From an uncultured Oscillospiraceae bacterium (GTDB taxonomy: Bacteria > Bacillota > Clostridia > Christensenellales > Aristaeellaceae), in the NCBI GenBank assembly GCA_964426145.1, contig CAYRPW010000002.1, positions 1-24,933 on the forward strand: DNA of 24,933 nucleotides, written 5' to 3'. Positions 1,281-17,888 of the stretch are shown here, piece after piece. The notes under the pieces were generated by a model. The model did no database searches. It worked only from the letters and a program-made list of their open reading frames with translations, and had not been told where the DNA came from. Position 1 is the first letter of the stretch. Every line of letters starts with the position of its first letter. The position numbers were made by a program, and so were the translations under genes.

Positions 1281-2210
1281 ATGCAAAGAAAACTGCTGGC
1301 CCTTTTGCTTGTGTTTGCGCTTCTGCCCGCCGCGGCAGCCCCCGCGCTCCCCGGCCCGGCCGTTGCGGCGCCGCTGCCGGATACGTCCCTTCGCTTCTGG
1401 GAAACGTCCGGCGCGCAGGCCTGGGAAGCCCGGGATCTTGAACTGTTTCCAAACGCGGACGACGTGCTGACCGTGATCGCCGCGGAACTCGGCGCTGCCG
1501 ATTGCTTTATTCTGCGCTGCGGCGGCCAGACCGCGCTGATCGACTGCGGTTGGCTTGGGCCTGGTGATCTGGTGCTGCGGCTTCTAGCGCAGGAGGGGAT
1601 CGACAGGTTTGATTTTGTCATCAACACGCACCCGCATGACGACCATATCAACGGCATTTTCGAGCTGCTGCCGAAGTTTCCCATCGGGAAACTCTACGTC
1701 GGGTTTGACCGCCATTACCGCAACCTCAACAAGCGGCTGTTCCGCGAGGCGGAGAAGCTGGGCATCCCCGTGGAACAGGTGGAAACGCCCAAAACCCTGA
1801 CCCTGGGCTCGGCGGAGCTGACGCTCTACCAGGTTCCCTGGGGTGACAACACCAACAACCGCTCCCTGGTCACGCGGCTGACGCTGGGGGAGCGTTCCAT
1901 GCTGCTGCCCGCCGATATCGGCCAAAGCGGGATGCTGTGGCTTTTGGATACCTACGGCGCGCAGGCTTTCCAGGCGGACATCCTGAAGGCGCCGCATCAC
2001 GGCATCGACCTGGTGCCGCCGGAGCTTCTGGCCGCCGCCGGGCCGCAGGCGATCTTCATTACCTACGTTCCGCACTCGCGCAACGAGGAAACCGTGAAAA
2101 AACTCAGAATGCTGGGCTACGAACCCCTCTTCGCCGGGCTCGGCTCGCTGGTGATGAAAACCGACGGCAACCTGTGGACCATCACCCAGCTGCCCCGCGA
2201 GGGCAGATAA
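1281..2210 (+). CDS. Secreted metallo-beta-lactamase-fold hydrolase, ComEC/Rec2 MBL-domain type
   Basis: Hydrophobic signal peptide (MQRKLLALLLVFALLPAAAA); ALIDCG, THPHDDH (HxHxDH), NNRSLV, LLPADIG and ILKAPHHG motifs; SD GGAGA. There is no ComEC membrane domain. Confidence 0.85.
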   Translation: MQRKLLALLLVFALLPAAAAPALPGPAVAAPLPDTSLRFWETSGAQAWEARDLELFPNADDVLTVIAAELGAADCFILRCGGQTALIDCGWLGPGDLVLRLLAQEGIDRFDFVINTHPHDDHINGIFELLPKFPIGKLYVGFDRHYRNLNKRLFREAEKLGIPVEQVETPKTLTLGSAELTLYQVPWGDNTNNRSLVTRLTLGERSMLLPADIGQSGMLWLLDTYGAQAFQADILKAPHHGIDLVPPELLAAAGPQAIFITYVPHSRNEETVKKLRMLGYEPLFAGLGSLVMKTDGNLWTITQLPREGR

Positions 2211-2243
2211 CCGGCGGTATTGCGGATAATCCGGTTTCGAAAC

Positions 2244-2274
2244 GGAAACGCCCGGCAGGCCTTTTTTCGTTTCC
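2244..2274. terminator. Possible weak hairpin between the convergent MBL and TetR genes
   Basis: GGAAACG (2244-2250) and CGTTTCC (2268-2274) enclose a GCC-CGGCA-GGC stem and a T6 run. The stem is imperfect. Confidence 0.3.
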
Positions 2275-2277
2275 CGG

Positions 2278-2865
2278 CTACAGCAGCCCCCGGATCACGG
2301 CCTCGGCCTGGGCGAGGGTTGCTTTCGTATTCTGCAGCTCGCCGGAGGCGATGAGCACGGAAATGCCGTGCACCACGCCCCAGCAGTGCAGGACGATCTC
2401 CTCGTGGGAACGCGGATCCTGCGGACAGGCTTCGCGGTAGCGCGTGACGGCGTCTTTGAGGATGCCCAGCGTGCCGCCGTGCTTTCGCACCCGTTCGTCC
2501 TGGAAGAAGCGCTCGCGGATGCGCAGGTCGGTTAAAAACAACAAACGCAGGTATTCGGGTTTCTCGGCGAAGAACCGGATGTATGCGACGCCCATCGCCG
2601 TCAGCTGCGCCGCGGGCGCGCCGGGGTGCAGCGCGACGGCGTCCAGAAGCCGCTGCTCGAAAGCGCTCATCGCCTGTGCCGCGATCGCGCCGATCAAATC
2701 GTCCTTGTTTCGGAAATGCCGGTAAGGCGCCGTCTGGCTTACGCCGCAGCGCTTGGCCGCTTCCCGCAGCGAAAAACGCTCGTACCCTTGGGCGTCCAGC
2801 AGCTGCAGGCCCTGCTCGATGAGCTGGGCTTTCAGGTCTCCGTGATGATAGGGCTGCTCAGGCAT
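2278..2865 (-). CDS. TetR/AcrR-family transcriptional regulator
   Basis: YHHGDLK N-terminus and HTH FSLREAAKRCGVSQTAPYRHFRNKDDL; C-terminal WGVVHGIS. Start moved to the ATG at 2865, which follows the SD GGAGGGA. Confidence 0.93.
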   Translation of the reverse strand: MPEQPYHHGDLKAQLIEQGLQLLDAQGYERFSLREAAKRCGVSQTAPYRHFRNKDDLIGAIAAQAMSAFEQRLLDAVALHPGAPAAQLTAMGVAYIRFFAEKPEYLRLLFLTDLRIRERFFQDERVRKHGGTLGILKDAVTRYREACPQDPRSHEEIVLHCWGVVHGISVLIASGELQNTKATLAQAEAVIRGLL

Positions 2866-2903
2866 CAGGCTTCCCTCCGGCGGATACATTAGAGTTGGAT
2901 TAA

Positions 2904-2932
2904 ATCATAGCATGGAATGTTGACAAAGTAAA
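2904..2932 (-). promoter_or_regulatory. Promoter for tetR, overlapping the divergent flavodoxin promoter
   Basis: Minus strand: TTTACT (2932-2927), 17 bp, TATGAT (2909-2904), with a TGn extension. Confidence 0.55.
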
Positions 2933-2967
2933 CATTGTACGCTACGCTATGTTTACATTGTTAACAT
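2916..2967. promoter_or_regulatory. Two TetR-type operator palindromes plus the flavodoxin operon promoter
   Basis: O1 AATGTTGAC-AAA-GTAAACATT (2916-2936) and O2 ATGTTTAC-ATT-GTTAACAT (2949-2967). Plus-strand promoter: TTGACA (2920-2925), 17 bp, TACGCT (2943-2948). Confidence 0.75.
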
Positions 2968-2978
2968 GGGAGGGAAAC

Positions 2979-3545
2979 ATGTCCATGCAGGCTTACATTC
3001 TGTCCGACGGCGAGTTCGACGGTGACCGGCTGCAAAGGCTCGGCGCCGCGGTGGAGCGCTGTTTGACCCAAAAGGGATTTGCGGTTACGCACAAGCGGCT
3101 GGAGCCGGGGGAGCTGAACCATTGCGTGGGCTGTTTCGGCTGCTGGGTGAAAACGCCGGGCCGCTGCGTGATCAAAGACTCGATGGACGGCATCAACCGC
3201 GCCGCCATGAACAGCGACGTAGTTGTCTATCTGGTGCCGCTGGTGTTCGGCCAGTTCTCCGCCAACATGAAAAACGCGGTGGACCGCTGGATTCCAAACA
3301 TACTGCCGTTTTTTCTCCTCAGGCCGGACGGTTCCACCATCCACCCGGCGCGTTACGAAAGCAATCCGCGCATCGTGATGATCGCTTACGGCGACAGCCT
3401 GACGGCGGAGGACAAAGCCCTGTTTACCGATATCACGGTCAGGCATCGCGCAAACGGGTCGGTGCTGTTTTATGAGGATAACGACGAAAAGCTTTCGCAG
3501 GCGCTGCTGGCCGTGGATTTGCGAAAGGCGGGGAGCGTCATATGA
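2979..3545 (+). CDS. Flavodoxin-like / iron-sulfur flavoprotein-like protein (NADPH-dependent FMN reductase superfamily)
   Basis: CVGCFGCWVKTPGRC cysteine cluster and DVVVYLVPLVFGQFSANMKNAVDR. Start moved to the ATG at 2979, which follows the SD GGAGGGA. Confidence 0.85.
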   Translation: MSMQAYILSDGEFDGDRLQRLGAAVERCLTQKGFAVTHKRLEPGELNHCVGCFGCWVKTPGRCVIKDSMDGINRAAMNSDVVVYLVPLVFGQFSANMKNAVDRWIPNILPFFLLRPDGSTIHPARYESNPRIVMIAYGDSLTAEDKALFTDITVRHRANGSVLFYEDNDEKLSQALLAVDLRKAGSVI

Positions 3546-4216
3546 GTGAGAAGAAACAGGTGGTCATCGTAAGCGCCAGCCCCAAGCCGCAGGGCAGAGC
3601 CGCGTCCGACCGGCTGGCGGAGGTGGCGGCGGCCGTGCTGCAAGACGATAGGGTGGGCGTGCAGATCATAAGCGCCCGGGAAACGCTGCAAACACGCGAA
3701 ACGGAGAAGGCGTTTGCGGCTATGGCCGCGGCGGACGCGCTGATCCTCGTGTTCCCGCTGTACGTTTTCTGCCTGCCGGGGATCACCATGCGGTTTTTGC
3801 AGCTGTACCGGGATTACGCGCTTCGGCTGCCCCTGCGCAGGCAGGCGGCGGTGTATGCCATCGTCAACTGCGGGTTTCCGGAGCCGGAAATCAACGAGGA
3901 GGCGTCGCGCGTCGTGGGCAGGTTCGCGTCGGCCGTCGGCGCGCGGTATGGATTTGGTATTTTGATCGGCGGCGGCGGCATGGTTTCGATGACGATCCCG
4001 CCCGTACAGAAAATGCTGACGAAGCTTACGGAGACGCTGCAGCGCGTGAAAGAAGAAATTAAAAGCGGCGCCTGCGCGCCTGCCCAAAGCGTATGCCTTC
4101 GCGTGGCCTTTCCCCGGAGGCTGTACTACTTTATGGGCAACATCGGCTGGAAGCGGTGGATCCGCAGCAACGGCAAACCCGTGAAGGACCTGTATGCGAG
4201 GCCGTACCAGCAATAA
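3542..4216 (+). CDS. Flavodoxin-like NAD(P)H-dependent oxidoreductase
   Basis: VVIVSASPK...SDRL, ADALILVFPLYVFCLPG and AIVNCGFPE motifs; ATGA overlap with the upstream gene, indicating translational coupling. Confidence 0.8.
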   Translation: MSEKKQVVIVSASPKPQGRAASDRLAEVAAAVLQDDRVGVQIISARETLQTRETEKAFAAMAAADALILVFPLYVFCLPGITMRFLQLYRDYALRLPLRRQAAVYAIVNCGFPEPEINEEASRVVGRFASAVGARYGFGILIGGGGMVSMTIPPVQKMLTKLTETLQRVKEEIKSGACAPAQSVCLRVAFPRRLYYFMGNIGWKRWIRSNGKPVKDLYARPYQQ

Positions 4217-4219: not shown

Positions 4220-4248
4220 AAACCCGCGGGGGTTTTCCCCGCGGGTTT
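4220..4248. terminator. Bidirectional Rho-independent terminator
   Basis: Perfect 12-bp stem AAACCCGCGGGG / CCCCGCGGGTTT with a 5-nt loop, between the convergent flavodoxin and CotH genes. A-rich on the left and T-rich on the right. Confidence 0.85.
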
Positions 4249-4273: not shown

Positions 4274-5758
4274 TTACGGCGCGGGCGTCGGCGCGGGCGG
4301 GATTTCCGTGGGAAGGATCGCCGGCGGGGCGGTCGGCGTGGCCGTGGGCTTGGGGGTCGGCGTTGCGGAAAGGTTGCGCAGATAGGTTTCCAGGTTTTCG
4401 TCCATGTAGCGGCCCTTCAGCACAATCTCGTTTTTCAGCTGCGCTACGGCGTCTTCGAAGGTATATACGTTGCGGTTGCTGCCGTCTGCGGCGGCAGTCA
4501 GGATATCTTTTGCCAGGATTTTGTCCCACCGGTCAAAATTGCGCTGAGCGGCGGGGCCCAGGTAGGCGGCAATTTCGTCGATCATGGCCAGCAGCCGTTC
4601 TTCGCTGAGCACGGTTTTACGAAGTTCCCGGTAGCGGTAGACGACGGTGTTGACGAACGTCTTATCCAGCACCAGCACGTTGAACCAGTTCGCGCCGCTC
4701 ATCAGAATGGTGTCGTACGCCGTGGGGTCGATGTGGTTGTCCAGGCAGTTGTTAAAATCCCATACTGGGCCCATGATCAGCTTCCCGCGCGGGTCGCGGT
4801 AACAGAAGGTGGAAAACGTTCCGGCGTCGCGGTTCATGGCGAACTCGTTGAAAATGAAGTAATCCACGAAGGAGTTCATGTCGATCTCGTCGGCGAAGGC
4901 GCGGCTCTTGTCCCCGTCCTGCAGCGCGTAGAGCTTCTCCTCAAACGCGTTGATGTCGTTTAATATATACTGGATGCTTTCCTCGGTCAGGTCGGCGGCC
5001 TGCGGAAACTCTATGCCCATGTCGTAGGTGGTTTTGCCCAGCGTGTCCGAGTAGGTTTTAATGTGCGATTTGATGTACACGTACATATCCCGCTGCAGAA
5101 GGTAGCCGACGGCGCCTTTTGCGCCTTGCTTCTGGGATACGTTGACGCGGTTTTTACCCACGGTCACCGCTTCGGTCATCACGTACAGCCCTTCGTAGCT
5201 GCCGTCGATAAACACTTCGCAGAACTTCGCGTGCGGCGCCCAGACCATGATCTCGCCCGCCAGGTTGTACATCAGATAATTGCGCATCAGCGATTTATCC
5301 AGGTACGGCCCGTTGAGCACCCAGTCGGTATCCGCGGCCATGCCCATCACGGCGCGGTTCACATGGTTGCCGGAGGCGAGTTTTTTTGTGAAATTGATCC
5401 GGTATTGCTTTTTGGGAAATTCCGCGGACGTTTTGCCGCGGATATTGATCAGCGCCGCGTTCGTCAGCGCCGGTGTGTCCGTCGTGTGGTTGTAGCCTCC
5501 CGCCTGGTCGATCACGGTCACCGTGACGGGGAGCTGCGTTTCCCGGGTGATCGTCCCGCCGCCGGTTTCAATCAGCACCAGCGGAAGGTGGCTGGAAAAA
5601 ACGTCGCTGCCGACGTCGTACGCGTCCGGACCGGCGGCGGTTTCATGCTGGTAAATGCGCTCATACTGCGGCCACAGCACCTGCCGCGCCGTGGCGGCCA
5701 CGGCCGCGATGAGAACGACGACGATTGAAATCACAATAACGGTCAGCCTGTTACGCAC
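4274..5758 (-). CDS. CotH-family atypical kinase, N-terminally membrane anchored, with Pro/Thr-rich tail
   Basis: N-terminal TM segment; IRGKTS, KKQYRINF, DWVLNGPYLDKSLMRN, YEGLYVMTE, FNEFAMNRD and GPVWDFN motifs; C-terminal ATPTPKPTATPTAPP...PTPAP. GTG start. Confidence 0.88.
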   Translation of the reverse strand: MRNRLTVIVISIVVVLIAAVAATARQVLWPQYERIYQHETAAGPDAYDVGSDVFSSHLPLVLIETGGGTITRETQLPVTVTVIDQAGGYNHTTDTPALTNAALINIRGKTSAEFPKKQYRINFTKKLASGNHVNRAVMGMAADTDWVLNGPYLDKSLMRNYLMYNLAGEIMVWAPHAKFCEVFIDGSYEGLYVMTEAVTVGKNRVNVSQKQGAKGAVGYLLQRDMYVYIKSHIKTYSDTLGKTTYDMGIEFPQAADLTEESIQYILNDINAFEEKLYALQDGDKSRAFADEIDMNSFVDYFIFNEFAMNRDAGTFSTFCYRDPRGKLIMGPVWDFNNCLDNHIDPTAYDTILMSGANWFNVLVLDKTFVNTVVYRYRELRKTVLSEERLLAMIDEIAAYLGPAAQRNFDRWDKILAKDILTAAADGSNRNVYTFEDAVAQLKNEIVLKGRYMDENLETYLRNLSATPTPKPTATPTAPPAILPTEIPPAPTPAP

Positions 5759-5772
5759 CGCGCCGCACCTGC

Positions 5773-6450
5773 CTAACGGCTCATGTCGTCGGTCTGGGAA
5801 ACGAGGTTGACCATTTTCACGCCGTTGACGCGGTAGAGGAACTGCATGATGCTGTTGTCGTTGAGGCGGGTGGATTTTTTCACGTCCGCGCCGTTGATTT
5901 CGAAAATGAACTCCACGTCCTCGGGTGTGGTATTCTTCACCCGCAAAACGGGCTTTTTATAGTATTCCTGCACGATCATCTCGATGATTCCCTGCCGGGG
6001 CATGTCGCAGCGGATGACGAGAATGTACTTGTTGTCTTCGCGGATGTGGTGGAAGACCACCAAAAACAGCACCACCGAGGCGGAGCCGATGGCCGCCGCC
6101 AGATAGAAACCCACGCCGCAGCAGATGCCCACCGCGATGCTCCAGAAAATGAAGGTGGTGTCCCGCGCGTCCTTGATGGCCGTGCGGAAGCGCACGATGG
6201 ACAGCGCGCCCACCATGCCCAGCGACAGCGCGATGTTGTTGGAAATCACGGTCATCACCATGGAGGTGACCAGCGAGAGCATGATCAGCGAGATGTTGAA
6301 CTTTTTGGAGTAGGAAATTCCCGCGTAGGTCCAGGCATAAATGGCGTAAATCAGCATGCCCAGCACAAGCGTCACGCCTGCGTTCATCAGCAGCTGCTCG
6401 AGCTGGAGCGTGCCCTGTTCCGCCAGATTGTTCAGGATGTACTCTTTCAC
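5773..6450 (-). CDS. DUF4956-family membrane protein
   Basis: ISNNIALSLGMVGALSIVRFRTAIKDARDTTFIFWSIAVGICCG signature and an ACT-like C-terminus. The GTG at 6450 (after AGAGGT) is preferred over the track's 6462. Confidence 0.88.
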   Translation of the reverse strand: MKEYILNNLAEQGTLQLEQLLMNAGVTLVLGMLIYAIYAWTYAGISYSKKFNISLIMLSLVTSMVMTVISNNIALSLGMVGALSIVRFRTAIKDARDTTFIFWSIAVGICCGVGFYLAAAIGSASVVLFLVVFHHIREDNKYILVIRCDMPRQGIIEMIVQEYYKKPVLRVKNTTPEDVEFIFEINGADVKKSTRLNDNSIMQFLYRVNGVKMVNLVSQTDDMSR

Positions 6451-6523
6451 CGGCTTACACACCTCTGGTTTCTTTTGCCTGATGCGGGAGTGTTGCGTGG
6501 TTGCGGCCTCGTGCCGCCGGGGC

Positions 6524-7207
6524 TTAGTGCAGATCGGCGCGGCCGAGCACGTATTTGCTCATGGCCGCCGGCTGCGTATCCAGGTTCTTAAGCATCCCCT
6601 GCAGGTAGGAATACAGAAAGCCGTTGTATTTCACTTCCAGCACGCCCATGTCCGGGGCGATCAGCGGCGTGAAGTTCGCGTTGGCTACGAACAGGTTGCT
6701 GCTCTGCCAGGACGCGCGGATGTGCGAATCGTAGGTGATGCGGATATCGTTGCCCGGCGCGGCGTAGGCTTGCCGGTCATACTCGATGAGCACCTTGGGC
6801 TGGTAGACGCGCATCATCATTTCGTGATAAATCTGCGCGGCCAGCGGATCGGGAAGGTCAAGCAGGAAGCCGTAGTCGCCCGCCACCATCTGCCGGGCCT
6901 GCTTGCGCGTCAGCGGGATGGAGGTCTTGTGCTGGTTTACGCCCTGCTTGAACTTGTATTCCAGCTTGATGAGGCGGCCCTGGGGGGGATACACGCGCAC
7001 GCGGATCTTCTTGCGGGTTTCCGCGCCTTTCAAGACGTCGAAATAGTCTTCGTTATGGAAGGAGTCGAAATAGAGGGAGCGCACTTTGTACAGGCCGCTC
7101 GCGTCGCCGGCCGGGTCCGGCCTGAGCAGAAGCGAAAGCTTCGGTTCCAGCATCTTGAACTGCAGCAGAGGGATCAGGTACTTTATCTCTCTTCGTTCAA
7201 CGTTCAT
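6524..7207 (-). CDS. VTC-domain (polyphosphate polymerase / CYTH-like tunnel) protein
   Basis: RREIKY, VRSLYFDS, KKIRVRVY, KLEYK, IEYDRQAY, IRITYD, VLEVKY and SKY motifs. Start moved to the ATG at 7207, which follows the SD CAGGAG. Confidence 0.88.
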   Translation of the reverse strand: MNVERREIKYLIPLLQFKMLEPKLSLLLRPDPAGDASGLYKVRSLYFDSFHNEDYFDVLKGAETRKKIRVRVYPPQGRLIKLEYKFKQGVNQHKTSIPLTRKQARQMVAGDYGFLLDLPDPLAAQIYHEMMMRVYQPKVLIEYDRQAYAAPGNDIRITYDSHIRASWQSSNLFVANANFTPLIAPDMGVLEVKYNGFLYSYLQGMLKNLDTQPAAMSKYVLGRADLH

Positions 7208-7326
7208 TGCGCTCTCCTGTCGGGTTACTGCCGCCCCGGGCGTCTGGCCGCAAAGCCTTGGCCGCCGGGCTTTCCGCCGTAAAACTCCGCCGCACGGACG
7301 CGGTGTTGTGGTTCTCACGTGATTGC

Positions 7327-7355
7327 ATTATAGAATATATGAACCATTGTGTCAA
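7327..7355 (-). promoter_or_regulatory. Consensus sigmaA promoter for the VTC-DUF4956-CotH operon
   Basis: Minus strand: TTGACA (7355-7350), 17 bp, TATAAT (7332-7327); a perfect consensus match. Confidence 0.85.
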
Positions 7356-7481: not shown

Positions 7482-8942
7482 ATGGTGTTTTCAAGCGTCA
7501 CATTTATCGGCGTGTTTCTGCCTGCGACGCTGATCCTTTACTACCTGTCCAAAAACCGCACGGTCCGCAATGCCGTGCTTCTGGCCGCGTCGCTTTTGTT
7601 CTACGCCTGGGGCGAGCCGGTGTACATCCTCGCGATGATCGGCGTAACGCTGATTGATTACGTGTTCGGCATCATTCTGGGGAAAACGCACAGCAAGGCG
7701 GCGGGAGTGTGGCTGCTGGTGCTGTGCGTAACATTGAACCTGCTGCCGCTCATTACCTTCAAATATTACAATTTCTTTGCGGGCCAGCTCGGGCTGCTTT
7801 TCCATTTCTCGCCGCGGCTTCTTTCCGCGGCGATGCCCATCGGCATTTCGTTTTTCACCTTCCAGTCCTTAAGCTACGCGATCGACGTCTACCGCCAGAA
7901 TGCCAAAACCCAGCGCAACTACGCGCACGTTCTATTATATGTATCCATGTTCCCGCAGCTGATCGCGGGCCCCATCGTGCGCTATACCGACGTGGAGGAC
8001 GAGCTTTACAACCGCCGGGAAACCCCGGAGCAGTTCACCGAGGGCTGTTTCCGCTTTGCGGTGGGCTTCGCCAAAAAGGTGATCCTGGCCAACTACGCGG
8101 GGCAGGTGGCAAGCTATCTGCTCAACGACCTGTTCTCGTCGCTGTCGGTGTGCGGCGCGTGGATCGGCCTCGCCACGGCGGCGATCCAGCTGTTTTTCGA
8201 TTTCTCCGGCTATTCCGATATGGCGATCGGGCTGGGGCTGATGTTCGGCTTCCATTTTAAAGAGAACTTCAAATACCCCTACATGGCCCGGTCGATCACG
8301 GAATTCTGGGCGCGCTGGCATATCTCCATGGGCAACTGGTTCCGTGATTACGTGATGTATCCCATGGCGATGTCCGGCGGCTTTTCCCGGTTCAGCCGCG
8401 CCGTGCGCAAGCGTTTGGGCGCGCAGATGGGCAGCTTCCTTCCGTCCTCGGTCGCAACCGTGATCACCTTCGCGCTCATCGGCCTGTGGCACGGCGCGGA
8501 CTGGAACTTTATTCTATGGGGGCTGTATTTCGCGGTGTTCCTGGTCATCGAAAAAGCGCTGAAACTCAAGTGGCGGCGGATTGATAAAATTCCCGTCGCC
8601 TCCAACTTCGTCACCGTGCTCGTGGTGCTGCTGGGCTTCGTATTGTTCTATTACACGGATCTGGGCCAGATCGGGCATTTTTACGCGTTGCTGTTCGGGG
8701 CGGGCGGCGCGCAGCTGCTGCCGGGTGTGCGGGAGATGTCGCAAATCAACGGCATCGTGTGGCTGTACCCGGTGCTCGTCGTCGCCGTTACGCCGTGGCC
8801 CGCCCGGCTTGCGCGCAAATGGCTTGGAAACGGCAGGCGCTTCGTAATCTTTCGCACCGGCTGGACGGCGGTGCTGCTTGCGCTGGGGTTTGTGATGCTG
8901 CTTGGGCAGAGCTTCAACCCCTTCATCTACTTCCGGTTTTAG
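7482..8942 (+). CDS. MBOAT-family O-acyltransferase (AlgI/PatA/DltB-like)
   Basis: MVFSS...F, ASLLFYAWGEP, PIGISFFTFQSLSYAIDVY, FPQLIAGPIVRY, FDFSGYSDMAIG, EFWARWHISMGNWFRDY, catalytic GLWHGA (His codon 8490) and C-terminal FIYFRF; SD GGGAGG. Confidence 0.95.
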   Translation: MVFSSVTFIGVFLPATLILYYLSKNRTVRNAVLLAASLLFYAWGEPVYILAMIGVTLIDYVFGIILGKTHSKAAGVWLLVLCVTLNLLPLITFKYYNFFAGQLGLLFHFSPRLLSAAMPIGISFFTFQSLSYAIDVYRQNAKTQRNYAHVLLYVSMFPQLIAGPIVRYTDVEDELYNRRETPEQFTEGCFRFAVGFAKKVILANYAGQVASYLLNDLFSSLSVCGAWIGLATAAIQLFFDFSGYSDMAIGLGLMFGFHFKENFKYPYMARSITEFWARWHISMGNWFRDYVMYPMAMSGGFSRFSRAVRKRLGAQMGSFLPSSVATVITFALIGLWHGADWNFILWGLYFAVFLVIEKALKLKWRRIDKIPVASNFVTVLVVLLGFVLFYYTDLGQIGHFYALLFGAGGAQLLPGVREMSQINGIVWLYPVLVVAVTPWPARLARKWLGNGRRFVIFRTGWTAVLLALGFVMLLGQSFNPFIYFRF

Positions 8943-8953
8943 GAGGCGCGATT

Positions 8954-9262
8954 ATGCAGAACGTATACAGGGCAAGCACGGCTATACTCGCGCTGGTTCT
9001 TCTCACCGTCGCGGTGTTTTCCGTTTTCGCGTTCTTCAACGGCGCAACGCTGGTGTCAATGCAGGAAAACCGAACGCTGGCGAAGCTGCCCGCGCTCACG
9101 GCGGAAACGTGGTTTGGCGGCGGCTACGGCACGGCGCTGGACGAGTATCTGGGCGATCACGTGCTGCTGCGCGAGGAGCTGATCCCGGTCACCCGCGCGC
9201 TGGAACGGCTGATGCGCGTGCAGTCCCGCATCCGCATCATTGACATGGATAACCCGAACTGA
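8954..9262 (+). CDS. 102-aa membrane-anchored protein resembling the N-terminal module of DHHW/AlgJ-like proteins
   Basis: ATG at 8954 after the SD AGGAGG (inside track ORF 8759-9262). One TM helix is followed by ENRTLAKLP...TWFGGGYGTALDEYLGDHVLLREE, like the ENRxLAxxP...DxFxxR segment of DHHW proteins. Ends in TGA TAA. Confidence 0.7.
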   Translation: MQNVYRASTAILALVLLTVAVFSVFAFFNGATLVSMQENRTLAKLPALTAETWFGGGYGTALDEYLGDHVLLREELIPVTRALERLMRVQSRIRIIDMDNPN

Positions 9263-9290
9263 TAAGATTTGAAAAAGGGGAGAAACGCTT

Positions 9291-9530
9291 ATGATGGATA
9301 CGTTACAGGAGATTCTTGAGGAGATACATCCCGGCATTGATTATCAAAACGAAACCGCGCTGATCGACGACGGGCTGTTGGATTCCTTCAACGTCATCGC
9401 GATCGTCACGGAGCTGAACAACCGGTTCGGCATCCGCATCTCCATCAGCGATCTCGAACCGGAAAATTTCAATTCCATGCAGGCCATCCAGGCGCTTGTG
9501 GAACGGCACAGGCAGAAAAAAAGCCGCTGA
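9291..9530 (+). CDS. Acyl/aminoacyl carrier protein (DltC-like)
   Basis: 79 aa, acidic; LIDDGLLDSF phosphopantetheine-Ser motif and PENFNS; SD GGGGAG. Confidence 0.92.
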   Translation: MMDTLQEILEEIHPGIDYQNETALIDDGLLDSFNVIAIVTELNNRFGIRISISDLEPENFNSMQAIQALVERHRQKKSR

Positions 9531-9532
9531 CC

Positions 9533-11059
9533 ATGACCACGAACGTGTTGGCCTGGCTGGAACAAACGGCGGAGCGCATTCCCGATTGCACCGCCTTCTC
9601 CGGCCCGGAGGAACGGCTCACCTTCCGCACGCTGCAGGCGCGCGCCGCGGCTGCGGGCACCTTTTTGCACCCGTTTGTGCCGCCGCGCCGGGCCGTGGCC
9701 GTGCTGATGGATAAAAGCTGCGACGCCATCGTCGCCTGTCTGGGCGCGGTGTATGCGGGCGGCTTTTATGCGTATATCGACCGCACCCAGCCCGCGCAGC
9801 GCGTGCAGGCAATCCTCGGCCAGCTCAACCCCGCTGCCATCGTAACCGGCCGTACGCTGAAACCCCAGGCCGACGCGCTGATGGCGGGCTGCCCGGTGTT
9901 CACGGCGGAAGAGCTGATCGGCGGGCAGGCGGATCCGGCGGTTGTGCAGGCCGTCCGCCGGGACGCCATCGATACCGACCCGCTGTACTGCAACTTCACC
10001 TCGGGATCCTCGGGCACGCCCAAGGGCGTGCTGGTGTGCCACCGCTCGGTGATCGATTTCATCACAGTGTTTGCTGAGACCTTCGGCATTACGCAGCAGG
10101 ACGTGCTGGGAAACCAGGCCCCGCTGGATTTTGACGTGTCGGTGAAGGACGTGTTCACGGGGCTTTATACCGGCGCGGAGGTTGTGCTCATTCCCCGGGG
10201 ATACTTCACGTTTTTGAAAAAGCTTTTAGAACTTTTGGAGCAGCGCGGCGTGACCACGCTGACGTGGGCGGTGTCCGCCCTGTGCCTCCTGTCCACGATG
10301 GACGGGCTTGCCACGCTGCGCCCTTCGCGGCTCAGGCGGTTTATGTTCTCCGGCGAGGTGATGCCGCTGGACCATCTGCGCTATTGGCGCAAGCACTACC
10401 CGGACGCCCTGTTCGTCAACCTCTACGGCCCCACGGAGATCACCTGCAACTGCACCTACCACATCGTTCCCCGGAACGCGGATCCGGACGCGGCGCTTCC
10501 CATCGGCATTCCGTTTCCCAACGAACGGGTTTTCCTGCTGGACGAGAACAACGCGCCGGTAACCCGGCCGGATGCGGAGGGCGAGCTGTGCGTCAGCGGC
10601 ACGGCGGTTACGCTGGGCTACTACAATAACCCGCAGCGCACGGCGGAGGCGTTCGTGCAAAACCCGCTCAACACGGCCTATCCCGAGATCATCTACCGCA
10701 CGGGCGACCTTGCCCGCTACGGCAGCGACGGGCTTTTATACTTCGCCGGCCGGCGGGATTTCCAGGTTAAGCACCACGGCAGGCGCGTGGAGCTGCCGGA
10801 AATCGAAATCGCGCTGGCCGCCGCGGGCGCGAAACGCGCCTGCGCGCTGTATATGGACAAGGAGGAGCGCATCATTGCCTACGTGATCGCCGATCGGCCC
10901 CCGCAGGAGCTGATGAAGGCGCTGCGCCAGGCGCTGCCCGATTATATGATCCCGTCCGAAATCATCCCGGCTGTCACCCTGCCGCTGACGAGTAACGGCA
11001 AGCTCGACCGCAAGGCGCTCACCGAGGCCTGGCGCAGCCGGAAGGCGGACACCGTATGA
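9533..11059 (+). CDS. Stand-alone amino-acid adenylation enzyme (DltA-like aminoacyl-carrier ligase)
   Basis: Core motifs A3 FTSGSSGTPKG, A4 FDVSV, A5 NLYGPTE, A6 GELCVSG...GYYNNP, A7 YRTGDL, A8 GRRDFQVK..G.RVEL.EIE and A10 NGKLDR. Confidence 0.93.
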   Translation: MTTNVLAWLEQTAERIPDCTAFSGPEERLTFRTLQARAAAAGTFLHPFVPPRRAVAVLMDKSCDAIVACLGAVYAGGFYAYIDRTQPAQRVQAILGQLNPAAIVTGRTLKPQADALMAGCPVFTAEELIGGQADPAVVQAVRRDAIDTDPLYCNFTSGSSGTPKGVLVCHRSVIDFITVFAETFGITQQDVLGNQAPLDFDVSVKDVFTGLYTGAEVVLIPRGYFTFLKKLLELLEQRGVTTLTWAVSALCLLSTMDGLATLRPSRLRRFMFSGEVMPLDHLRYWRKHYPDALFVNLYGPTEITCNCTYHIVPRNADPDAALPIGIPFPNERVFLLDENNAPVTRPDAEGELCVSGTAVTLGYYNNPQRTAEAFVQNPLNTAYPEIIYRTGDLARYGSDGLLYFAGRRDFQVKHHGRRVELPEIEIALAAAGAKRACALYMDKEERIIAYVIADRPPQELMKALRQALPDYMIPSEIIPAVTLPLTSNGKLDRKALTEAWRSRKADTV

Positions 11060-12234
11060 ACCGGGCGGAGCTTTTAAACCTCGCGGCGGCGTACGGAACG
11101 CCTTTGTACGTGTTCGATACCGACGCGCTTTCGCGCCGCACGGCGCTGGTGCGCGACGCATTTTCAAACGCCGTGCGCCTGTGCTATTCCATCAAGGCCA
11201 ATCCGTTCTTAACGGGCTGCGCGCCCATGGAGCTTCTGGAGGTATGCAGCCCCGGCGAGCTTGCCATCTGCCGGGCGCTCCGCGTGCCGCCGGAGCGCAT
11301 TCTGCTCAGCGGCGTCAGCAAAACGGAGCGGGACGTTGCGGACGCGCTCGATTACGGTGTGAGAACCCTGACCGCCGAAAGCCCGCTGCACGCGGAACGT
11401 ATCGAGGCCGCGGCAGCGCAGAGGGGGCTGACCGTCGATCTGCTGCTTCGGCTTACGGGCGGCGATCAGTTCGGCATGGACGGGGCAGCCGTGCGCGAAC
11501 TGGTGCGCGGCCGGGATGCCTTCAAGCACCTGCGGATGCAGGGCCTGCACTTTTTTTCCGGCACGCAGAAGAAAAACAAGGCGGCGGCCGAGCGAGAGCT
11601 TACGATGCTTGCCGATTTTGCCGACGGCCTGGAGCGCGATTTCGGCTTTGCCGGGCGGCGCCTGGAATATGGCGCGGGGCTGTTTGCCGATTACTTCGGC
11701 GCGGACGCGGCCAAGCGCGAGGAACAGCTGCTTTTGGACGTTGCCCCGTTCGTGCGCAGGGCGGCGGAGCGCTTTGCGCTCACCGTGGAAATGGGGCGGT
11801 TCTTCGCCGCGTCCTGCGGGTACTACCTGACCTCGGTTGCGGACGTCAAGGTTTCCGATGGCAGGAATATCGCCATCGTGGACGGCGGCAATCACCAAAT
11901 TCAGTACGACGGGCTGCTGCTTGCGCCCGCGCCGCCGCCCGTGACTTTGCTTTCGGGCGACCGTCCGGCGGACGGCGAGTGGACGGTCTACGGAAGCCTC
12001 TGTTCGCGCGGGGACATTCTGGCGCGGGGCGTGAAGCTTCCCGCGCTGCGCCTTTCCGACGTGCTGTGTTTCGGGCAGGCGGGGGCGTACGCGGTGACCG
12101 AGGGCATGGCCCTGTTTTTAAGCCGCGATCTGCCCGCCGTGGTACTGTGGAGTAAAAGCGGAGGCGCGTCGCTTTTACGCGGGCATCTGTCCACGCACCT
12201 GTTCAGCACCCCATTCGCCCGGTTGGAGGAATAA
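11056..12234 (+). CDS. Fold-type III PLP-dependent decarboxylase (LysA/ODC superfamily, divergent)
   Basis: YGTPLYVFD, YSIKANP (PLP Lys, codon 11194), EVCSPGE, EMGR, VDGG, GSLCSRGD and GAY motifs; ATGA overlap with the adenylation gene. Confidence 0.88.
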   Translation: MNRAELLNLAAAYGTPLYVFDTDALSRRTALVRDAFSNAVRLCYSIKANPFLTGCAPMELLEVCSPGELAICRALRVPPERILLSGVSKTERDVADALDYGVRTLTAESPLHAERIEAAAAQRGLTVDLLLRLTGGDQFGMDGAAVRELVRGRDAFKHLRMQGLHFFSGTQKKNKAAAERELTMLADFADGLERDFGFAGRRLEYGAGLFADYFGADAAKREEQLLLDVAPFVRRAAERFALTVEMGRFFAASCGYYLTSVADVKVSDGRNIAIVDGGNHQIQYDGLLLAPAPPPVTLLSGDRPADGEWTVYGSLCSRGDILARGVKLPALRLSDVLCFGQAGAYAVTEGMALFLSRDLPAVVLWSKSGGASLLRGHLSTHLFSTPFARLEE

Positions 12235-12237
12235 TTT

Positions 12238-13104
12238 TTGAAAATCCATGCAATCGGCACACGGTTTCTGGATTATCCGCAGTACTGCGCGGTGGTGGAT
12301 GAGGCGCTTGCCGCCATCCACGCGCCGCTGCTGAACGGCCTGCCCCTGGCGGGAGACGCGCGGCGGCTGATTGATGCGAAGAGGCTTTTTTACGTGCGCG
12401 GCCGGGATCATCTGCTGCTTTTCAGCGCGCACGTTGGCTATTATAAGCTCTATTACGCCGCGCACGAGGACGCGGTGCTGACCATTCCGCCGACCGCCAT
12501 GCCCATCGTGGCCGATCAGGTGCGGCTTTCCACCCGGGAATGCCCGCGCTGCGACCAGCTGATGGCCCGAAGCTGTTTCACGCTCGACCGCGTGGACGTG
12601 CGCCTGGAACGGAAGCTGGACGCAAGCCTGCGCCGTTCGCAGTATATCCACGGCTCGCTGCCGCTGCATGCCGTTGCGGATTACGCGATGACCGGAGAGT
12701 ATTACAAAATCAATACGCTGCTGCGCGGCGCGTTCGACCCGTTGCTTGACGAACTTCCCGGCAGGGACGAACTGATGCGGAGCATTCAGGACGGGTTTGT
12801 GTTCGTGGTCCGCGACGCGGAAAAAATCGCGGCCGTGATGGTCTGCATCCCCAAAGGCGCCATGGTGCTGCTGCACTGGATTGCCGTGGACAAGAAGTAC
12901 CGCAACCAGAATTTGAGCGGCCTGCTGCATTTCTTCGGCGATACCCAATGCCGGAGGAAAGGCTTCCGCCAGGAGGCCCTGTGGGTGGACGAGCATGCCG
13001 CCGGGTGGATCGGGGCGGTGCGCAGACGGGGCTTCCATTTGACCGACCAGCGGCTTTACACCTACGTGCATCCGCCCAATTGCGAAAACCCTTCATACGC
13101 TTGA
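12238..13104 (+). CDS. GNAT-family acyltransferase-like protein
   Basis: TTG start after the SD GGAGGA. The C-terminal GNAT domain carries LHWIAVDKKYRNQNLSGLL (motif A-like) and ends in RRRGF. The N-terminal half is of uncertain fold. Confidence 0.7.
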   Translation: MKIHAIGTRFLDYPQYCAVVDEALAAIHAPLLNGLPLAGDARRLIDAKRLFYVRGRDHLLLFSAHVGYYKLYYAAHEDAVLTIPPTAMPIVADQVRLSTRECPRCDQLMARSCFTLDRVDVRLERKLDASLRRSQYIHGSLPLHAVADYAMTGEYYKINTLLRGAFDPLLDELPGRDELMRSIQDGFVFVVRDAEKIAAVMVCIPKGAMVLLHWIAVDKKYRNQNLSGLLHFFGDTQCRRKGFRQEALWVDEHAAGWIGAVRRRGFHLTDQRLYTYVHPPNCENPSYA

Positions 13105-13129
13105 CTTACACGCTTCACAGAATTATAAT
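13101..13129 (+). promoter_or_regulatory. Internal sigmaA promoter upstream of the DHHW lipoprotein gene
   Basis: TTGACT (13101-13106, overlapping the GNAT TGA stop), 17 bp, TATAAT (13124-13129). Confidence 0.75.
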
Positions 13130-13181
13130 AATATTGGAAAACTGTGTTAAGAGAAAAGAATCGGATGCTGGAGGCACGATC

Positions 13182-14264: not shown

Positions 14265-14306
14265 GGCGGCGCGGCGTCAGGCGCCGTGCGGAGGAGTTGA
14301 CGCGTA

Positions 14307-16193: not shown

Positions 16194-16235
16194 GATTTTG
16201 AACTGTCACAGACAGTGAAAAGGAGCAGCCAGAAC

Positions 16236-17753: not shown

Positions 17754-17846
17754 GCGGGCGTCGGGCGGCGGGTAACGCGGCCCGCCATTGCGCACAGGCG
17801 GCTTGGCCGCGTCAAACAGGCGGCCGGACCGCCAATCGTGGAATGG

Positions 17847-17873
17847 AGATTGGGAGCCGCGGGCTCCCAATCT
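17847..17873 (+). terminator. Strong hairpin just upstream of the SMP-30 ribosome-binding site
   Basis: Perfect 12-bp stem AGATTGGGAGCC / GGCTCCCAATCT with a GCG loop, followed by TTGT. It ends 5 nt before the SD (GGGAGGA). Confidence 0.55.
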
Positions 17874-17888
17874 TTGTCGGGAGGATGT

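What the first reader, a model, noticed from the sequence alone, without database searches (positions are those of the whole stretch)
4274..7207. VTC-domain / DUF4956 / CotH three-gene module: candidate phosphate-export and extracellular phosphorylation system
Seen: a tight operon under a consensus promoter encoding a cytoplasmic VTC/CYTH tunnel enzyme, a small multi-TM protein and an externally facing CotH-like kinase with intact-looking motifs (NRD, GPVWDFN). Known: eukaryotic Vtc4 polymerises polyP from ATP and couples this to membrane translocation; Bacillus CotH is an atypical ATP-dependent protein kinase. To my knowledge the bacterial triplet has no established biochemical function. Inference: VTC plus DUF4956 could supply a phosphoryl donor across the membrane for CotH to modify surface proteins or glycans.
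Basis: partly seen in the sequence, partly recalled or inferred. Interest (0 to 1): 0.6.

Follow-up and report, generated by a model that had tools for sequence, protein, structure and literature searches.

The report
VTC–DUF4956–CotH surface-modification operon
A three-gene operon pairs a polyphosphate-polymerase-like enzyme and its membrane partner with an outward-facing CotH kinase; the trio is widespread and already noted next to biofilm-sugar genes, but what it does chemically is still unknown.

Summary
On the minus strand lie VTC (6524-7207), DUF4956 (5773-6450) and CotH (4274-5758). They sit between a perfect sigma-70 promoter (7355-7327) and a hairpin terminator (4248-4220).

The trio is not new. 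Two Pel-polysaccharide papers and a Clostridium perfringens paper list it, but none gives a biochemical function.

What I add, from 200 genomes of the same class:
- VTC and DUF4956 are an obligate pair: 115 of 120 near-full VTC genes have DUF4956 within 1 kb on the same strand.
- The third gene is CotH (56 of 120) or the beta-helix protein Cthe_2159 (35 of 120), never both. Every partner whose N-terminus I examined (21 CotH, 5 Cthe_2159) carries a signal or anchor sequence.
- VTC and DUF4956 trees split the same way, by partner type.
- The VTC protein keeps the Vtc4 catalytic residues, and its model matches Vtc4 best.
- CotH keeps both catalytic aspartates and has an N-terminal membrane anchor.
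- The closest relatives sit in polysaccharide-synthase operons that are not Pel.

Against it: DUF4956 resembles MgtC, and the published streptococcal VTC deletion had no reported phenotype.

Verdict: a member of a known but uncharacterised module, of moderate interest.

The parts
7327..7355 (-). Sigma-70-type promoter, TTGACA-17 nt-TATAAT, about 120 nt upstream of the VTC start codon
   Evidence: 12 of 12 consensus matches. The sequence was read. No Rfam family matched the 5' leader.
6524..7207 (-). VTC-domain protein (227 aa): a stand-alone triphosphate-tunnel enzyme of the Vtc4 polyphosphate-polymerase type, with no signal or TM segment in the model
   Evidence: PF09359, E 3.3e-33. A profile of 64 homologues hits the Vtc4 catalytic domain 3g3q at E 1.2e-10. 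The AlphaFold model has pLDDT 94.3. Its best Foldseek matches are Vtc4 structures, 3g3r_B at E 7.3e-14, TM 0.75-0.78. Invariant residues are listed.
5773..6450 (-). DUF4956 membrane protein (225 aa; alternative start at 6462): five TM helices plus a C-terminal ACT-like, MgtC-C-like domain
   Evidence: PF16316, E 1.9e-16. Weak MgtC matches: Pfam E 6e-5 and NCBIfam PRK09977 E 5e-6. The model has pLDDT 74.6. The C-terminal domain matches MgtC C-domains 7qa5 (Z 9.5) and 2lqj (Z 9.2), tied with other ACT folds. The RBS and GTG were read.
4274..5758 (-). CotH kinase-family protein (494 aa): N-terminal membrane anchor (about residues 5-25), CotH domain (104-452), Pro/Thr-rich C-terminal tail (about 463-494)
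   Evidence: PF08757, E 4.5e-61. Matches 5jd9 (B. cereus CotH) at E 4.6e-6, with both Asp positions aligned. The N-terminal 19-aa hydrophobic window has a mean Kyte-Doolittle score of 2.94 at residue 5. D311 and D334 are invariant.
4220..4248 (.). Bidirectional intrinsic-terminator-like hairpin that ends the operon and the convergent flavodoxin-like gene
   Evidence: 12-13 bp stem with 9 GC pairs and a T-run on both strands.

Best explanation
**Proposed mechanism**

The operon encodes a trans-membrane module that modifies a cell-surface polymer.
- Cytoplasmic face: the VTC enzyme, a Vtc4-type triphosphate-tunnel metalloenzyme, acts on ATP or a triphosphate substrate, most likely building polyphosphate. 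It works together with the MgtC-like five-TM protein DUF4956.
- Outer face: the membrane-tethered CotH kinase modifies an exopolysaccharide or a surface protein.
- Link between the two: DUF4956 hands the phosphate polymer, or phosphoryl groups derived from it, across the membrane. This would give an outside kinase a donor where ATP is scarce.

**Shown here**
- The operon structure.
- The obligate VTC-DUF4956 pairing.
- The alternation of two partner families whose examined members carry signal or anchor sequences.
- Intact catalytic residues in VTC and CotH.
- Repeated linkage to polysaccharide-synthase genes.

**Inferred**
- Polyphosphate synthesis by the bacterial enzyme.
- Any transport by DUF4956.
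- The donor and the substrate of CotH.

**Confidence**
- About 0.75 that the three proteins cooperate in surface-polymer biology.
- About 0.35 for the export-and-donor mechanism. The confidence figure given refers to that mechanism.
For: **1. Obligate pair**
- In 200 genomes of the class (at least 90% complete), VTC was found in 101 and DUF4956 in 99. All 99 DUF4956 genomes hold VTC.
- 130 VTC matches were listed; 10 shorter than 500 nt were dropped, leaving 120.
- 115 of the 120 have DUF4956 within 1 kb. All 115 are on the same strand, and 114 of 115 have DUF4956 downstream.

**2. Partner that is predicted to sit outside**
- CotH lies within 5 kb of 56 of 120 VTC genes, always on the same strand. 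It is downstream in 41, as in the window.
- Cthe_2159 lies within 5 kb of 35 of 120. No locus has both, and 29 have neither.
- 21 of 21 linked CotH proteins have an N-terminal hydrophobic anchor.
- 5 of 5 Cthe_2159 partners inspected have a signal peptide, four of them with a lipobox.

**3. Co-diversification**
- VTC and DUF4956 trees both split, with 100/99-100 support, into a CotH-linked clade and a Cthe_2159-or-unaccompanied clade.
- The window sits in a clade of 8 'short CotH' loci, supported 95/91 in the DUF4956 tree.
- Paralogous systems coexist in 7 of 200 genomes, this one included.

**4. Active sites**
- Window residues K9, R69, R71, K85, Y143, R145 and E191 align with Vtc4 K200, R264, R266, K281, Y359, R361 and E426.
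- Those Vtc4 residues bind the triphosphate and Mn2+ and are needed for polyP synthesis (bioRxiv 10.1101/2023.01.27.525886, passages).
- An invariant K218 sits where Vtc4 K458 is expected. K458 is the one residue that differs in the inactive Vtc2 and Vtc3. This mapping is inferred from order and spacing, not from an alignment.
- Foldseek ranks Vtc4 structures (E 7e-14) well above other tunnel enzymes (E 6.5e-8 or weaker).

**5. Genomic context**
- Six of the seven closest loci read VTC-DUF4956-CotH, then a protein of about 720 aa, a HEAT-repeat protein and a membrane GT2 synthase. The sixth is cut by its contig end after the 720-aa gene. Three of the six also carry a GGDEF-EAL gene.
- The seventh locus carries a GT2-PilZ synthase, an MBOAT and an AlgX/DHHW gene. 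Its MBOAT is 42.6% identical to the MBOAT that diverges from this operon.
- Published work places the trio in pel loci.

**6. Genetics elsewhere**
- Deleting the CotH or the DUF4956 homologue in S. intermedius halved aggregation in sputum medium and changed Pel levels.

**7. Membrane link**
- Some VTC proteins carry their own N-terminal multi-TM domain: P0276 and P0294, among 14 long forms in the top 150.
Against: - **DUF4956 looks like MgtC**. By my recollection, no MgtC-family member is a proven channel.
- **The VTC active site differs from Vtc4 at one position.** An invariant glutamate (E7) sits where Vtc4 has T198. This is the glutamate of the classical tunnel-hydrolase motif, so hydrolysis rather than polymerisation is possible.
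- **The pair can stand alone.** 29 of 120 VTC genes have neither CotH nor Cthe_2159 within 5 kb. 24 of those still have DUF4956, and 6 lie within 5 kb of the start of their contig.
- **No VTC-DUF4956 fusion was seen**.
- **Published genetics.** In S. intermedius the VTC deletion had no reported effect. The DUF4956 and CotH deletions moved Pel levels in opposite directions.
- **Donor.** Bacillus CotH uses ATP (recalled; the paper is not held). A polyphosphate-using CotH has no precedent.
- **Incomplete tables.** 24 CotH matches and 11 Cthe_2159 matches were not listed by the tool. I entered only 87 of the 150 Cthe_2159 matches it did list, leaving out lower-scoring second hits of genes already entered and a few weak isolated ones. 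The 'neither' class may therefore be overcounted.
Confidence: 0.35

Rival explanations
1. Inside-only phosphate and energy module. VTC and the MgtC-like DUF4956 buffer cytoplasmic ATP and phosphate at the membrane, storing phosphate as polyphosphate. Nothing is exported. CotH is merely co-expressed and uses extracellular ATP, or acts as a binding protein.
For: - DUF4956 resembles MgtC in both its TM part and its ACT-like C-domain.
- The mBio paper's discussion links MgtC to phosphate metabolism.
- 24 VTC-DUF4956 pairs have no CotH or Cthe_2159 nearby.
- Many loci are flanked by an OmpR-type response regulator and histidine kinase: 9 of the 13 'long CotH' loci, several Cthe_2159 or unaccompanied loci, and this genome's second locus. 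That fits a homeostatic regulon.
Against: - 91 of 120 pairs are co-directional with a CotH or Cthe_2159 gene. The pair's phylogeny follows the type of that partner. This is hard to explain without a functional link across the membrane.
- 69 of the 72 CotH-bearing genomes listed also hold VTC.
Confidence: 0.25
2. Regulatory module of polysaccharide synthesis. CotH phosphorylates proteins of the secretion or synthase machinery. VTC turns over a triphosphate signal, and the ACT-like domain of DUF4956 senses a small molecule. Together they tune polymer output, as an alternative or addition to c-di-GMP control.
For: - Whitfield et al. proposed protein phosphorylation as a way to regulate Pel.
- In S. 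intermedius the DUF4956 deletion raised Pel and the CotH deletion lowered it, which looks regulatory rather than biosynthetic.
- ACT domains commonly bind small ligands (established knowledge); the fold match is.
- The retained glutamate E7 is typical of tunnel hydrolases and cyclases (the motif is recalled).
Against: - The close relatives already carry c-di-GMP parts: GGDEF-EAL and PilZ.
- CotH faces outwards while the synthase catalytic domains face inwards.
- The Cthe_2159 variant has no kinase at all, yet keeps the same VTC-DUF4956 core.
Confidence: 0.2
3. Polyphosphate itself is the exported product. It would be an anionic surface or matrix polymer that binds cations or cross-links cationic polysaccharide such as Pel. 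CotH or Cthe_2159 would capture, anchor or trim it, not use it as a donor.
For: - Same core evidence as the main model.
- Two unrelated outside partners share one core. This fits a common exported product handled in different ways.
- Cthe_2159 is annotated in Pfam as a carbohydrate-binding protein. That its fold is of the kind that binds polyanionic pectate is recalled.
- Pel is described in the papers read as GalNAc-rich. That it is cationic is recalled.
Against: - CotH keeps both catalytic aspartates in 21 of 21 proteins, which argues for catalysis rather than mere binding.
- No evidence for transport by DUF4956.
- The streptococcal VTC deletion had no reported aggregation defect.
Confidence: 0.15

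Closest known systems
Yeast VTC complex (Vtc4 catalytic tunnel domain with the Vtc1/Vtc3 membrane channel)
   Same: - Same Pfam family and same tunnel fold; Vtc4 structures are the best structural matches.
- Same triphosphate- and Mn-binding residues.
- Both work with a membrane partner.
   Different: - No SPX domain, and no TM domain on the enzyme itself.
- The membrane partner is an MgtC-like five-TM protein with an ACT-like domain, not the three-helix Vtc1 type.
- An extra invariant glutamate (E7) sits where Vtc4 has T198.
- Polymerase activity and translocation are unproven in bacteria.
Bacillus spore-coat kinase CotH (PDB 5JD9/5JDA)
   Same: - PF08757 over its whole length.
- Both aspartates align, 23 residues apart.
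   Different: - Only a distant sequence match (E 4.6e-6).
- The window protein has an N-terminal membrane anchor and a Pro/Thr-rich tail and is predicted to face outwards.
- It sits in a polysaccharide and surface context, not a spore-coat one.
- Its substrate and donor are unknown.
Accessory genes cotH / 'polyphosphate polymerase' / DUF4956 (/DUF4832) of Gram-positive pel loci (Whitfield et al. 2020; S. intermedius SIR_1592-1594, mBio 2025)
   Same: - The same three families in one transcription unit.
- This genome also has a pel-like locus with an epimerase-fused PelD-like gene and a DUF4832 gene. That is the combination the 2020 paper correlates with the accessory set.
   Different: - Here the trio is not contiguous with pel. 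It lies on another contig, under its own consensus promoter, back to back with an MBOAT/AlgX-type acylation cluster.
- CotH lacks the FN3 domain described for SIR_1594.
- The 2025 paper reports not finding the trio outside pel loci. In my sample, none of the 20 CotH-type loci inspected had pel genes in the genes scanned.
C. perfringens NELoc-2 segment: VTC, 'tubulin/FtsZ-like' membrane protein, CotH, 685-aa protein, HEAT protein, chitin-synthase-like GT (PMC2879425)
   Same: Gene order and sizes match six of the seven closest relatives of the window's trio.
   Different: The window lacks the 720-aa, HEAT and GT2 genes after CotH, and tblastn found no homologue of the first two in this genome. 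That the 222-226-aa 'tubulin' genes are DUF4956 is my inference from size, membrane localisation and position; I did not test it.
MgtC/SapB family
   Same: Five-TM N-terminal part plus an ACT-like C-terminal domain. Weak profile matches and a fold match.
   Different: Scores lie below the curated cut-offs (23.8 against 31.4 bits; 26.2 against 214 bits). It is always paired with VTC, which classical MgtC is not (recalled). It has its own invariant R87-x-R89 motif.

Membership tests
VTC / Vtc4-type polyphosphate polymerase domain (PF09359, triphosphate tunnel metalloenzymes) | Sequence match to the family model above the curated cut-off, over its full length | tested here: met
   115.6 bits against a cut-off of 23; profile positions 2-235 of 235.
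VTC / Vtc4-type polyphosphate polymerase domain (PF09359, triphosphate tunnel metalloenzymes) | Closed beta-barrel tunnel fold, closest to Vtc4 | tested here: met
   The model has pLDDT 94.3 and nine strands. Vtc4 3g3r_B scores E 7.3e-14, TM 0.75-0.78; the best non-VTC tunnel enzyme scores E 6.5e-8, TM 0.56.
VTC / Vtc4-type polyphosphate polymerase domain (PF09359, triphosphate tunnel metalloenzymes) | Triphosphate-binding residues (Vtc4 K200, R264, R266, K281, Y359, R361) and the Mn-binding residue E426 | tested here: met
   They align with K9, R69, R71, K85, Y143, R145 and E191. All are invariant or at least 90% conserved in 64 sequences. Residue roles come from bioRxiv 10.1101/2023.01.27.525886, passages read.
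VTC / Vtc4-type polyphosphate polymerase domain (PF09359, triphosphate tunnel metalloenzymes) | S457/K458 pair; K458 distinguishes active Vtc4 from inactive Vtc2/3 | tested here: inconclusive
   S217 (at least 90% conserved) and K218 (invariant) lie at the expected distance after K193. The printed alignment to Vtc4 stops before this point.
VTC / Vtc4-type polyphosphate polymerase domain (PF09359, triphosphate tunnel metalloenzymes) | Polyphosphate synthesis from ATP | not testable with these tools
   Needs an enzyme assay. The invariant E7, aligned to Vtc4 T198, leaves hydrolase chemistry open.
Eukaryotic VTC complex (synthesis coupled to membrane translocation) | Catalytic subunit carries SPX and a C-terminal three-helix TM domain; the channel is built with Vtc1-type subunits | tested here: not met
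   The protein is 227 aa and holds the tunnel domain only. Its neighbour is DUF4956/MgtC-like, not Vtc1-like.
CotH kinase family (PF08757) | Sequence match over the whole domain | tested here: met
   207.6 bits against a cut-off of 23.8; profile positions 1-322 of 322. 5jd9 scores E 4.6e-6.
CotH kinase family (PF08757) | Catalytic-loop Asp and metal-binding Asp (roles recalled from Nguyen et al. 2016, paper not held) | tested here: met
   D311 and D334 align with the two Asp of 5jd9, 23 residues apart. Both are invariant in 21 of 21 linked CotH proteins.
CotH kinase family (PF08757) | ATP-dependent protein kinase activity; spore-coat location | not testable with these tools
   Activity needs an assay. 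A spore-coat location is unlikely because of the N-terminal anchor.
DUF4956 (PF16316) | Sequence match above the cut-off | tested here: met
   60.7 bits against a cut-off of 30.6.
MgtC/SapB family (PF02308; NF007431) | Sequence match above the curated cut-off | tested here: not met
   23.8 against 31.4 bits; 26.2 against 214 bits.
MgtC/SapB family (PF02308; NF007431) | Five-TM part plus an ACT-like C-terminal domain | tested here: met
   The model has five TM helices and a beta-alpha-beta-beta-alpha-beta domain. 7qa5 scores Z 9.5 (rmsd 2.7, 83 aligned) and 2lqj Z 9.2, tied with other ACT folds.
pel-locus accessory gene set (cotH/PPP/DUF4956/DUF4832) | The three families in one co-directional cluster | tested here: met
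pel-locus accessory gene set (cotH/PPP/DUF4956/DUF4832) | Contiguous with pelDEA(DA)FG | tested here: not met
   No pel gene is in the window. PelF, PelG and DUF4832 lie on contig C1. The assembly is fragmented, so the true distance is unknown, but at least five unrelated genes separate the trio from the nearer contig end.

The most novel reading that the evidence does not exclude
Bacteria have their own counterpart of the eukaryotic VTC machine. A Vtc4-type enzyme docked on an MgtC-like membrane protein would polymerise phosphate and thread it to the outer face of the membrane. There it would serve as an ATP-independent phosphoryl or energy source, or as a building block, for interchangeable surface enzymes: CotH kinases in one lineage and Cthe_2159 beta-helix proteins in another. 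These would decorate or organise exopolysaccharides. This would also give the MgtC superfamily a first transport-type role, and it would explain how an extracytoplasmic kinase works without ATP.
Probability: 0.25. Interest if true: 0.85.

Novelty: new member of a known kind. Interest (0 to 1): 0.5.

Why it matters
**How common it is.** The VTC-DUF4956 pair is in about half of the 200 genomes sampled from this class. The VTC family has about 9,000 cluster representatives at E 1e-10 or better. No member has a tested biochemical function in the literature I could search.

**If the export model is right:**
- it would reveal a bacterial route for putting phosphoanhydride chemistry outside the membrane;
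- it would show what CotH kinases do outside spores;
- it would point to a new chemical modification, or a new partner polymer, of biofilm polysaccharides such as Pel.

**If it is wrong,** the strict pairing with an MgtC-like protein still offers a handle on what MgtC-type proteins do.

**This window's instance** is convenient for testing. It is a compact three-gene operon with its own consensus promoter and terminator, separate from any synthase genes.

Tried and rejected
- **Complex prediction, VTC with DUF4956** (alignments A1 and A2): no answer, score 0.00 against a mark of 0.32, controls not run. This counts neither for nor against binding.
- **Fusion search.** A word-index search for longer VTC forms found none (weak evidence). 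The exhaustive profile search gave 14 long proteins among the top 150. Their N-terminal extensions are low-complexity or multi-TM, not DUF4956 or CotH.
- **Single-sequence PDB searches.** VTC and DUF4956 gave nothing meaningful. The DUF4956 profile also found no solved relative.
- **DUF4956 TM part.** It matched only designed or generic helical bundles. I claim no fold for it.
- **Rfam.** Nothing in the window or the 5' leader.
- **Sequencing runs.** No RNA holder is listed. The DNA holders with a large share are bioreactor and wastewater metagenomes. I laid no reads, so there is no expression evidence.
- **Earlier-findings tool.** Closed.
- **CotH kinase paper (PNAS 2016).** Not held. The roles of the two CotH aspartates are therefore recalled.
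- **Phage, defence or toxin readings.** Considered and dropped; nothing in the context supports them.
- **Idea that the two large unannotated ORFs at 16761-21085 are the missing 720-aa partner.** Rejected: tblastn with the relatives' 715- and 727-aa proteins found nothing in this genome.
- **** was an empty script.

Full report
**1. What is there**

The minus strand between 7355 and 4220 carries one compact transcription unit.
- A 12-of-12 consensus promoter, TTGACA-17-TATAAT, lies at 7355-7327.
- VTC runs from 7207 to 6524 (227 aa). DUF4956 runs from 6450 to 5773 (225 aa; an in-frame GTG at 6462 is the longest ORF). CotH runs from 5758 to 4274 (494 aa).
- A GC-rich hairpin with a T-run at 4248-4220 ends the unit.
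- Pfam assigns PF09359 (E 3.3e-33), PF16316 (E 1.9e-16) and PF08757 (E 4.5e-61).

**2. The three proteins**

*VTC*
- A profile of 64 homologues (A1) hits the Vtc4 catalytic domain at E 1.2e-10.
- Window residues K9, R69, R71, K85, K94, Y143, R145, R156, E191 and K193 align with Vtc4 K200, R264, R266, K281, K294, Y359, R361, R373, E426 and K428.
- The VTC cryo-EM preprint (10.1101/2023.01.27.525886, passages read) states three things. K200, R264, R266, K281, R361, K458, S457 and Y359 bind the triphosphate. E426 chelates Mn2+. K458 is the only one of these residues that differs in the inactive Vtc2 and Vtc3.
- The window protein has S217-K218 (K218 invariant) at the expected place. The printed alignment does not reach that far, so this mapping is inferred.
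- The AlphaFold model (pLDDT 94.3) matches Vtc4 structures best (E 7.3e-14, TM 0.75-0.78). Other tunnel enzymes follow at E 6.5e-8 or weaker.
- One difference: an invariant glutamate, E7, aligns with Vtc4 T198. This is the glutamate of the classical tunnel-enzyme motif (recalled), so hydrolytic chemistry cannot be excluded.

*DUF4956*
- The model (pLDDT 74.6) has an N-terminal amphipathic helix, five TM helices (17-41, 49-69, 73-90, 95-113, 116-132) and a beta-alpha-beta-beta-alpha-beta domain (141-219).
- That domain matches the MgtC C-terminal domains 7qa5 (Z 9.5) and 2lqj (Z 9.2), tied with other ACT-type folds.
- Sub-threshold MgtC profile matches agree with this.
- By the positive-inside rule (my reading of the sequence), the N-terminus is outside and the ACT-like domain inside.
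- The invariant R87 and R89, with K93 and D97, then sit in the cytoplasmic loop after the highly conserved, small-residue-rich TM3.

*CotH*
- It aligns with B. cereus CotH 5jd9 (E 4.6e-6). Both aspartates match and are 23 residues apart.
- D311 and D334 are invariant in 21 of 21 VTC-linked CotH proteins.
- All 21 have a hydrophobic N-terminal segment after basic residues. About half also appear to end in a hydrophobic stretch followed by basic residues.
- The window protein ends in a Pro/Thr-rich tail.
- The kinase domain is therefore predicted to be outside the membrane and tethered to it.

**3. How the genes travel together**

I searched 200 genomes of the same class, each at least 90% complete, with four Pfam models.

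| Family | Genomes with a match |
|---|---|
| VTC | 101 of 200 |
| DUF4956 | 99 of 201 |
| CotH | 81 of 200 |
| Cthe_2159 | 70 of 200 |

I parsed the listed coordinates.

| Count | Result |
|---|---|
| VTC matches listed / kept (500 nt or longer) | 130 / 120 |
| Kept VTC with DUF4956 within 1 kb | 115 of 120 |
| Of those, same strand / DUF4956 downstream | 115 of 115 / 114 of 115 |
| DUF4956 genomes that also hold VTC | 99 of 99 |
| VTC-only genomes | 2, both with partial matches only |
| CotH within 5 kb, all same strand | 56 of 120 |
| Of those, CotH downstream as here / upstream | 41 / 15 |
| Cthe_2159 within 5 kb, all same strand | 35 of 120 |
| Both CotH and Cthe_2159 | 0 |
| Neither | 29 (24 still with DUF4956; 6 within 5 kb of the start of their contig) |
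| Genomes with a CotH-type locus | 49 of 200 |
| Genomes with a Cthe_2159-type locus | 34 of 200 |
| Genomes with both types | 7 of 200 |
| CotH-bearing genomes listed that also hold VTC | 69 of 72 |

Caveats:
- The tool left 24 CotH and 11 Cthe_2159 matches unlisted.
- I entered 87 of the 150 Cthe_2159 matches it did list. I left out lower-scoring second hits of genes already entered and a few weak isolated ones.
- Related genomes are not independent.

Among the 14 control genomes, VTC, DUF4956 and CotH all ring in the same three: Bacteroides thetaiotaomicron, Corynebacterium glutamicum and Methanosarcina acetivorans.

This genome itself has a second set on contig C13: VTC, DUF4956 and a 606-aa Cthe_2159 lipoprotein. 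A response regulator, a histidine kinase and a GT2 gene lie on the same contig.

**4. Co-diversification**

I built trees of VTC (42 rows) and DUF4956 (40 rows). The rows came from 20 CotH-type loci, 16 unaccompanied loci, 4 Cthe_2159-type loci and this genome's two loci. I chose the rows by type, so they are not a random sample.
- Both trees split, with 100/99-100 support, into a CotH-linked clade and a clade of Cthe_2159-linked or unaccompanied loci.
- The window falls in a clade of eight 'short CotH' loci, supported 95/91 in the DUF4956 tree.
- Label clustering beat all shuffles, 0 of 200.
- The split does not follow the organism families. The two kinds of system are therefore old paralogues, each tied to its own outside partner.

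**5. Context**
- Six of the seven loci closest to the window continue after CotH with a protein of about 720 aa (weak GH72-like match), a HEAT-repeat protein and a membrane GT2 synthase. The sixth is cut by its contig end after the 720-aa gene. Three of the six also carry a GGDEF-EAL gene.
- The seventh locus continues with a GT2-PilZ synthase, an MBOAT and an AlgX/DHHW protein.
- The first pattern matches the gene list of C. perfringens NELoc-2 (PMC2879425, passages).
- The MBOAT of the seventh locus is 42.6% identical to the MBOAT that starts 275 bp upstream of, and divergent from, the window's operon.
- That window cluster also encodes a carrier protein, an AMP-binding enzyme, a PLP decarboxylase and a DHHW/AlgX protein.
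- The 13 'long CotH' loci look different. Nine are flanked by an OmpR-type two-component system, and none has pel genes in the genes scanned.
- This genome also has a pel-like locus, but on contig C1. It holds an epimerase-fused PelD-like gene, DUF2194, PelF, a split PelG and DUF4874-DUF4832.

**6. Literature**
- Whitfield et al. (PMC7112168 and its preprint, passages) describe cotH, a polyphosphate polymerase gene, DUF4956 and DUF4832 as accessory genes contiguous with pelDEA(DA)FG in streptococci, clostridia and bifidobacteria. They suggest a regulatory kinase role.
- The S. intermedius study (PMC12345266, passages) found that all accessory mutants still make Pel.
  - The DUF4956 and CotH deletions lost more than 50% of aggregation in sputum medium.
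  - Pel went up in the DUF4956 deletion and down in the CotH deletion.
  - No change was reported for the VTC deletion.
  - The authors state they did not find the trio outside pel loci. My sample shows that it is common outside them.
- The other papers that mention DUF4956 only list it in expression tables.
- I found no biochemical study.

**7. Reading**

The data firmly support a functional unit made of a cytoplasmic enzyme, a membrane protein and a partner predicted to lie outside the membrane, tied to surface-polymer biology.

- why a Vtc4-type enzyme is locked to a membrane protein;
- why the third partner carries an export or anchor signal in every case I examined;
- why an outside kinase is linked to a phosphate-polymer enzyme.

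It remains inference, and the evidence against it is real: the likeness to MgtC, the retained glutamate, pairs that stand alone, and the silent VTC deletion in streptococci.

I put about 0.35 on the export-and-donor mechanism. I give lower weights to an inside-only homeostasis module (0.25), a regulatory module (0.2) and export of polyphosphate as a matrix component (0.15).

**8. Verdict**

The finding is real and well delimited. It is a further member of a gene set already noted in print, in a new arrangement: unlinked from pel and beside an acylation cluster. Its function is unknown. Interest is moderate, because the module is very common, untested, and directly testable with three small genes.

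Noticed in passing
window 7482-14264 (+): A cluster divergent from the operon encodes an MBOAT (7482-8942), a small hydrophobic ORF (8759-9262), a phosphopantetheine carrier protein (9291-9530) and an AMP-binding enzyme (9533-11059). It continues with a PLP-dependent Orn/DAP/Arg-type decarboxylase (11056-12234), a weak GNAT-like ORF (12238-13104) and a DHHW/AlgX protein (12948-14264). It looks like a Dlt-like system that would put an amino-acid-derived acyl group on a surface glycan. Its MBOAT is 42.6% identical to one inside a relative's CotH operon.
   Followed up: partly
own genome contig C13, 7718-10981 (-), held as L048: A second, paralogous set: VTC (10199-10981), DUF4956 (9538-10209) and a 606-aa Cthe_2159 lipoprotein (7718-9538). 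An OmpR-type regulator and a histidine kinase lie downstream, and a GT2 synthase at 14209-15498.
   Followed up: partly
own genome contig C1, about 7700-23300, held as L047: A pel-like locus: an epimerase-fused 769-aa gene, DUF2194, PelF (DUF3492+GT4), GT2, DUF4874+DUF4832, a GT2-LRR fusion, GT4 and a flippase. PelG is in two frames (171 and 355 aa), which suggests a frameshift or an assembly error. No GH114 was found in the genome.
   Followed up: partly
own genome contig C36, 1-1819 (-), held as L002: A second CotH with lamin-tail, chitobiase-C and Fn3-associated domains ahead of the kinase domain. It is cut by the contig end and is not next to a VTC gene.
   Followed up: no
window 14307-21085: Three large ORFs have no convincing Pfam match: 14307-16193 (+), 628 aa; 16761-18815 (-), 684 aa; 18881-21085 (-), 734 aa. 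A BspA-type LRR protein lies at 16215-17753 (+).
   Followed up: no
window 21222-24931 (+): A GGDEF diguanylate cyclase (21222-22355), then a GH26 mannanase with CBM35 that runs off the window end.
   Followed up: no
P0276, P0294 (library proteins): Some VTC-domain proteins carry an N-terminal domain with several hydrophobic helices. Others carry long charged, low-complexity N-terminal extensions. 14 of the top 150 representatives are such long forms.
   Followed up: partly
L035 (G150:C2) 1849-3929 (-): One genome has VTC followed by two tandem DUF4956 genes.
   Followed up: no
window 7208-7326 (-): The 5' leader of the operon is about 120 nt long and GC-rich. It matches no Rfam family. I did not test it for conserved structure.
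   Followed up: partly
L008, L011, L012, L014, L016, L019 CotH N-termini: Six of the seven close relatives share a His/Cys-rich stretch (YHQH...C.HTD..C.HLPL) between the anchor and the kinase domain; L015 does not. The window protein keeps YQH and HLPL but lacks the cysteines.
   Followed up: no
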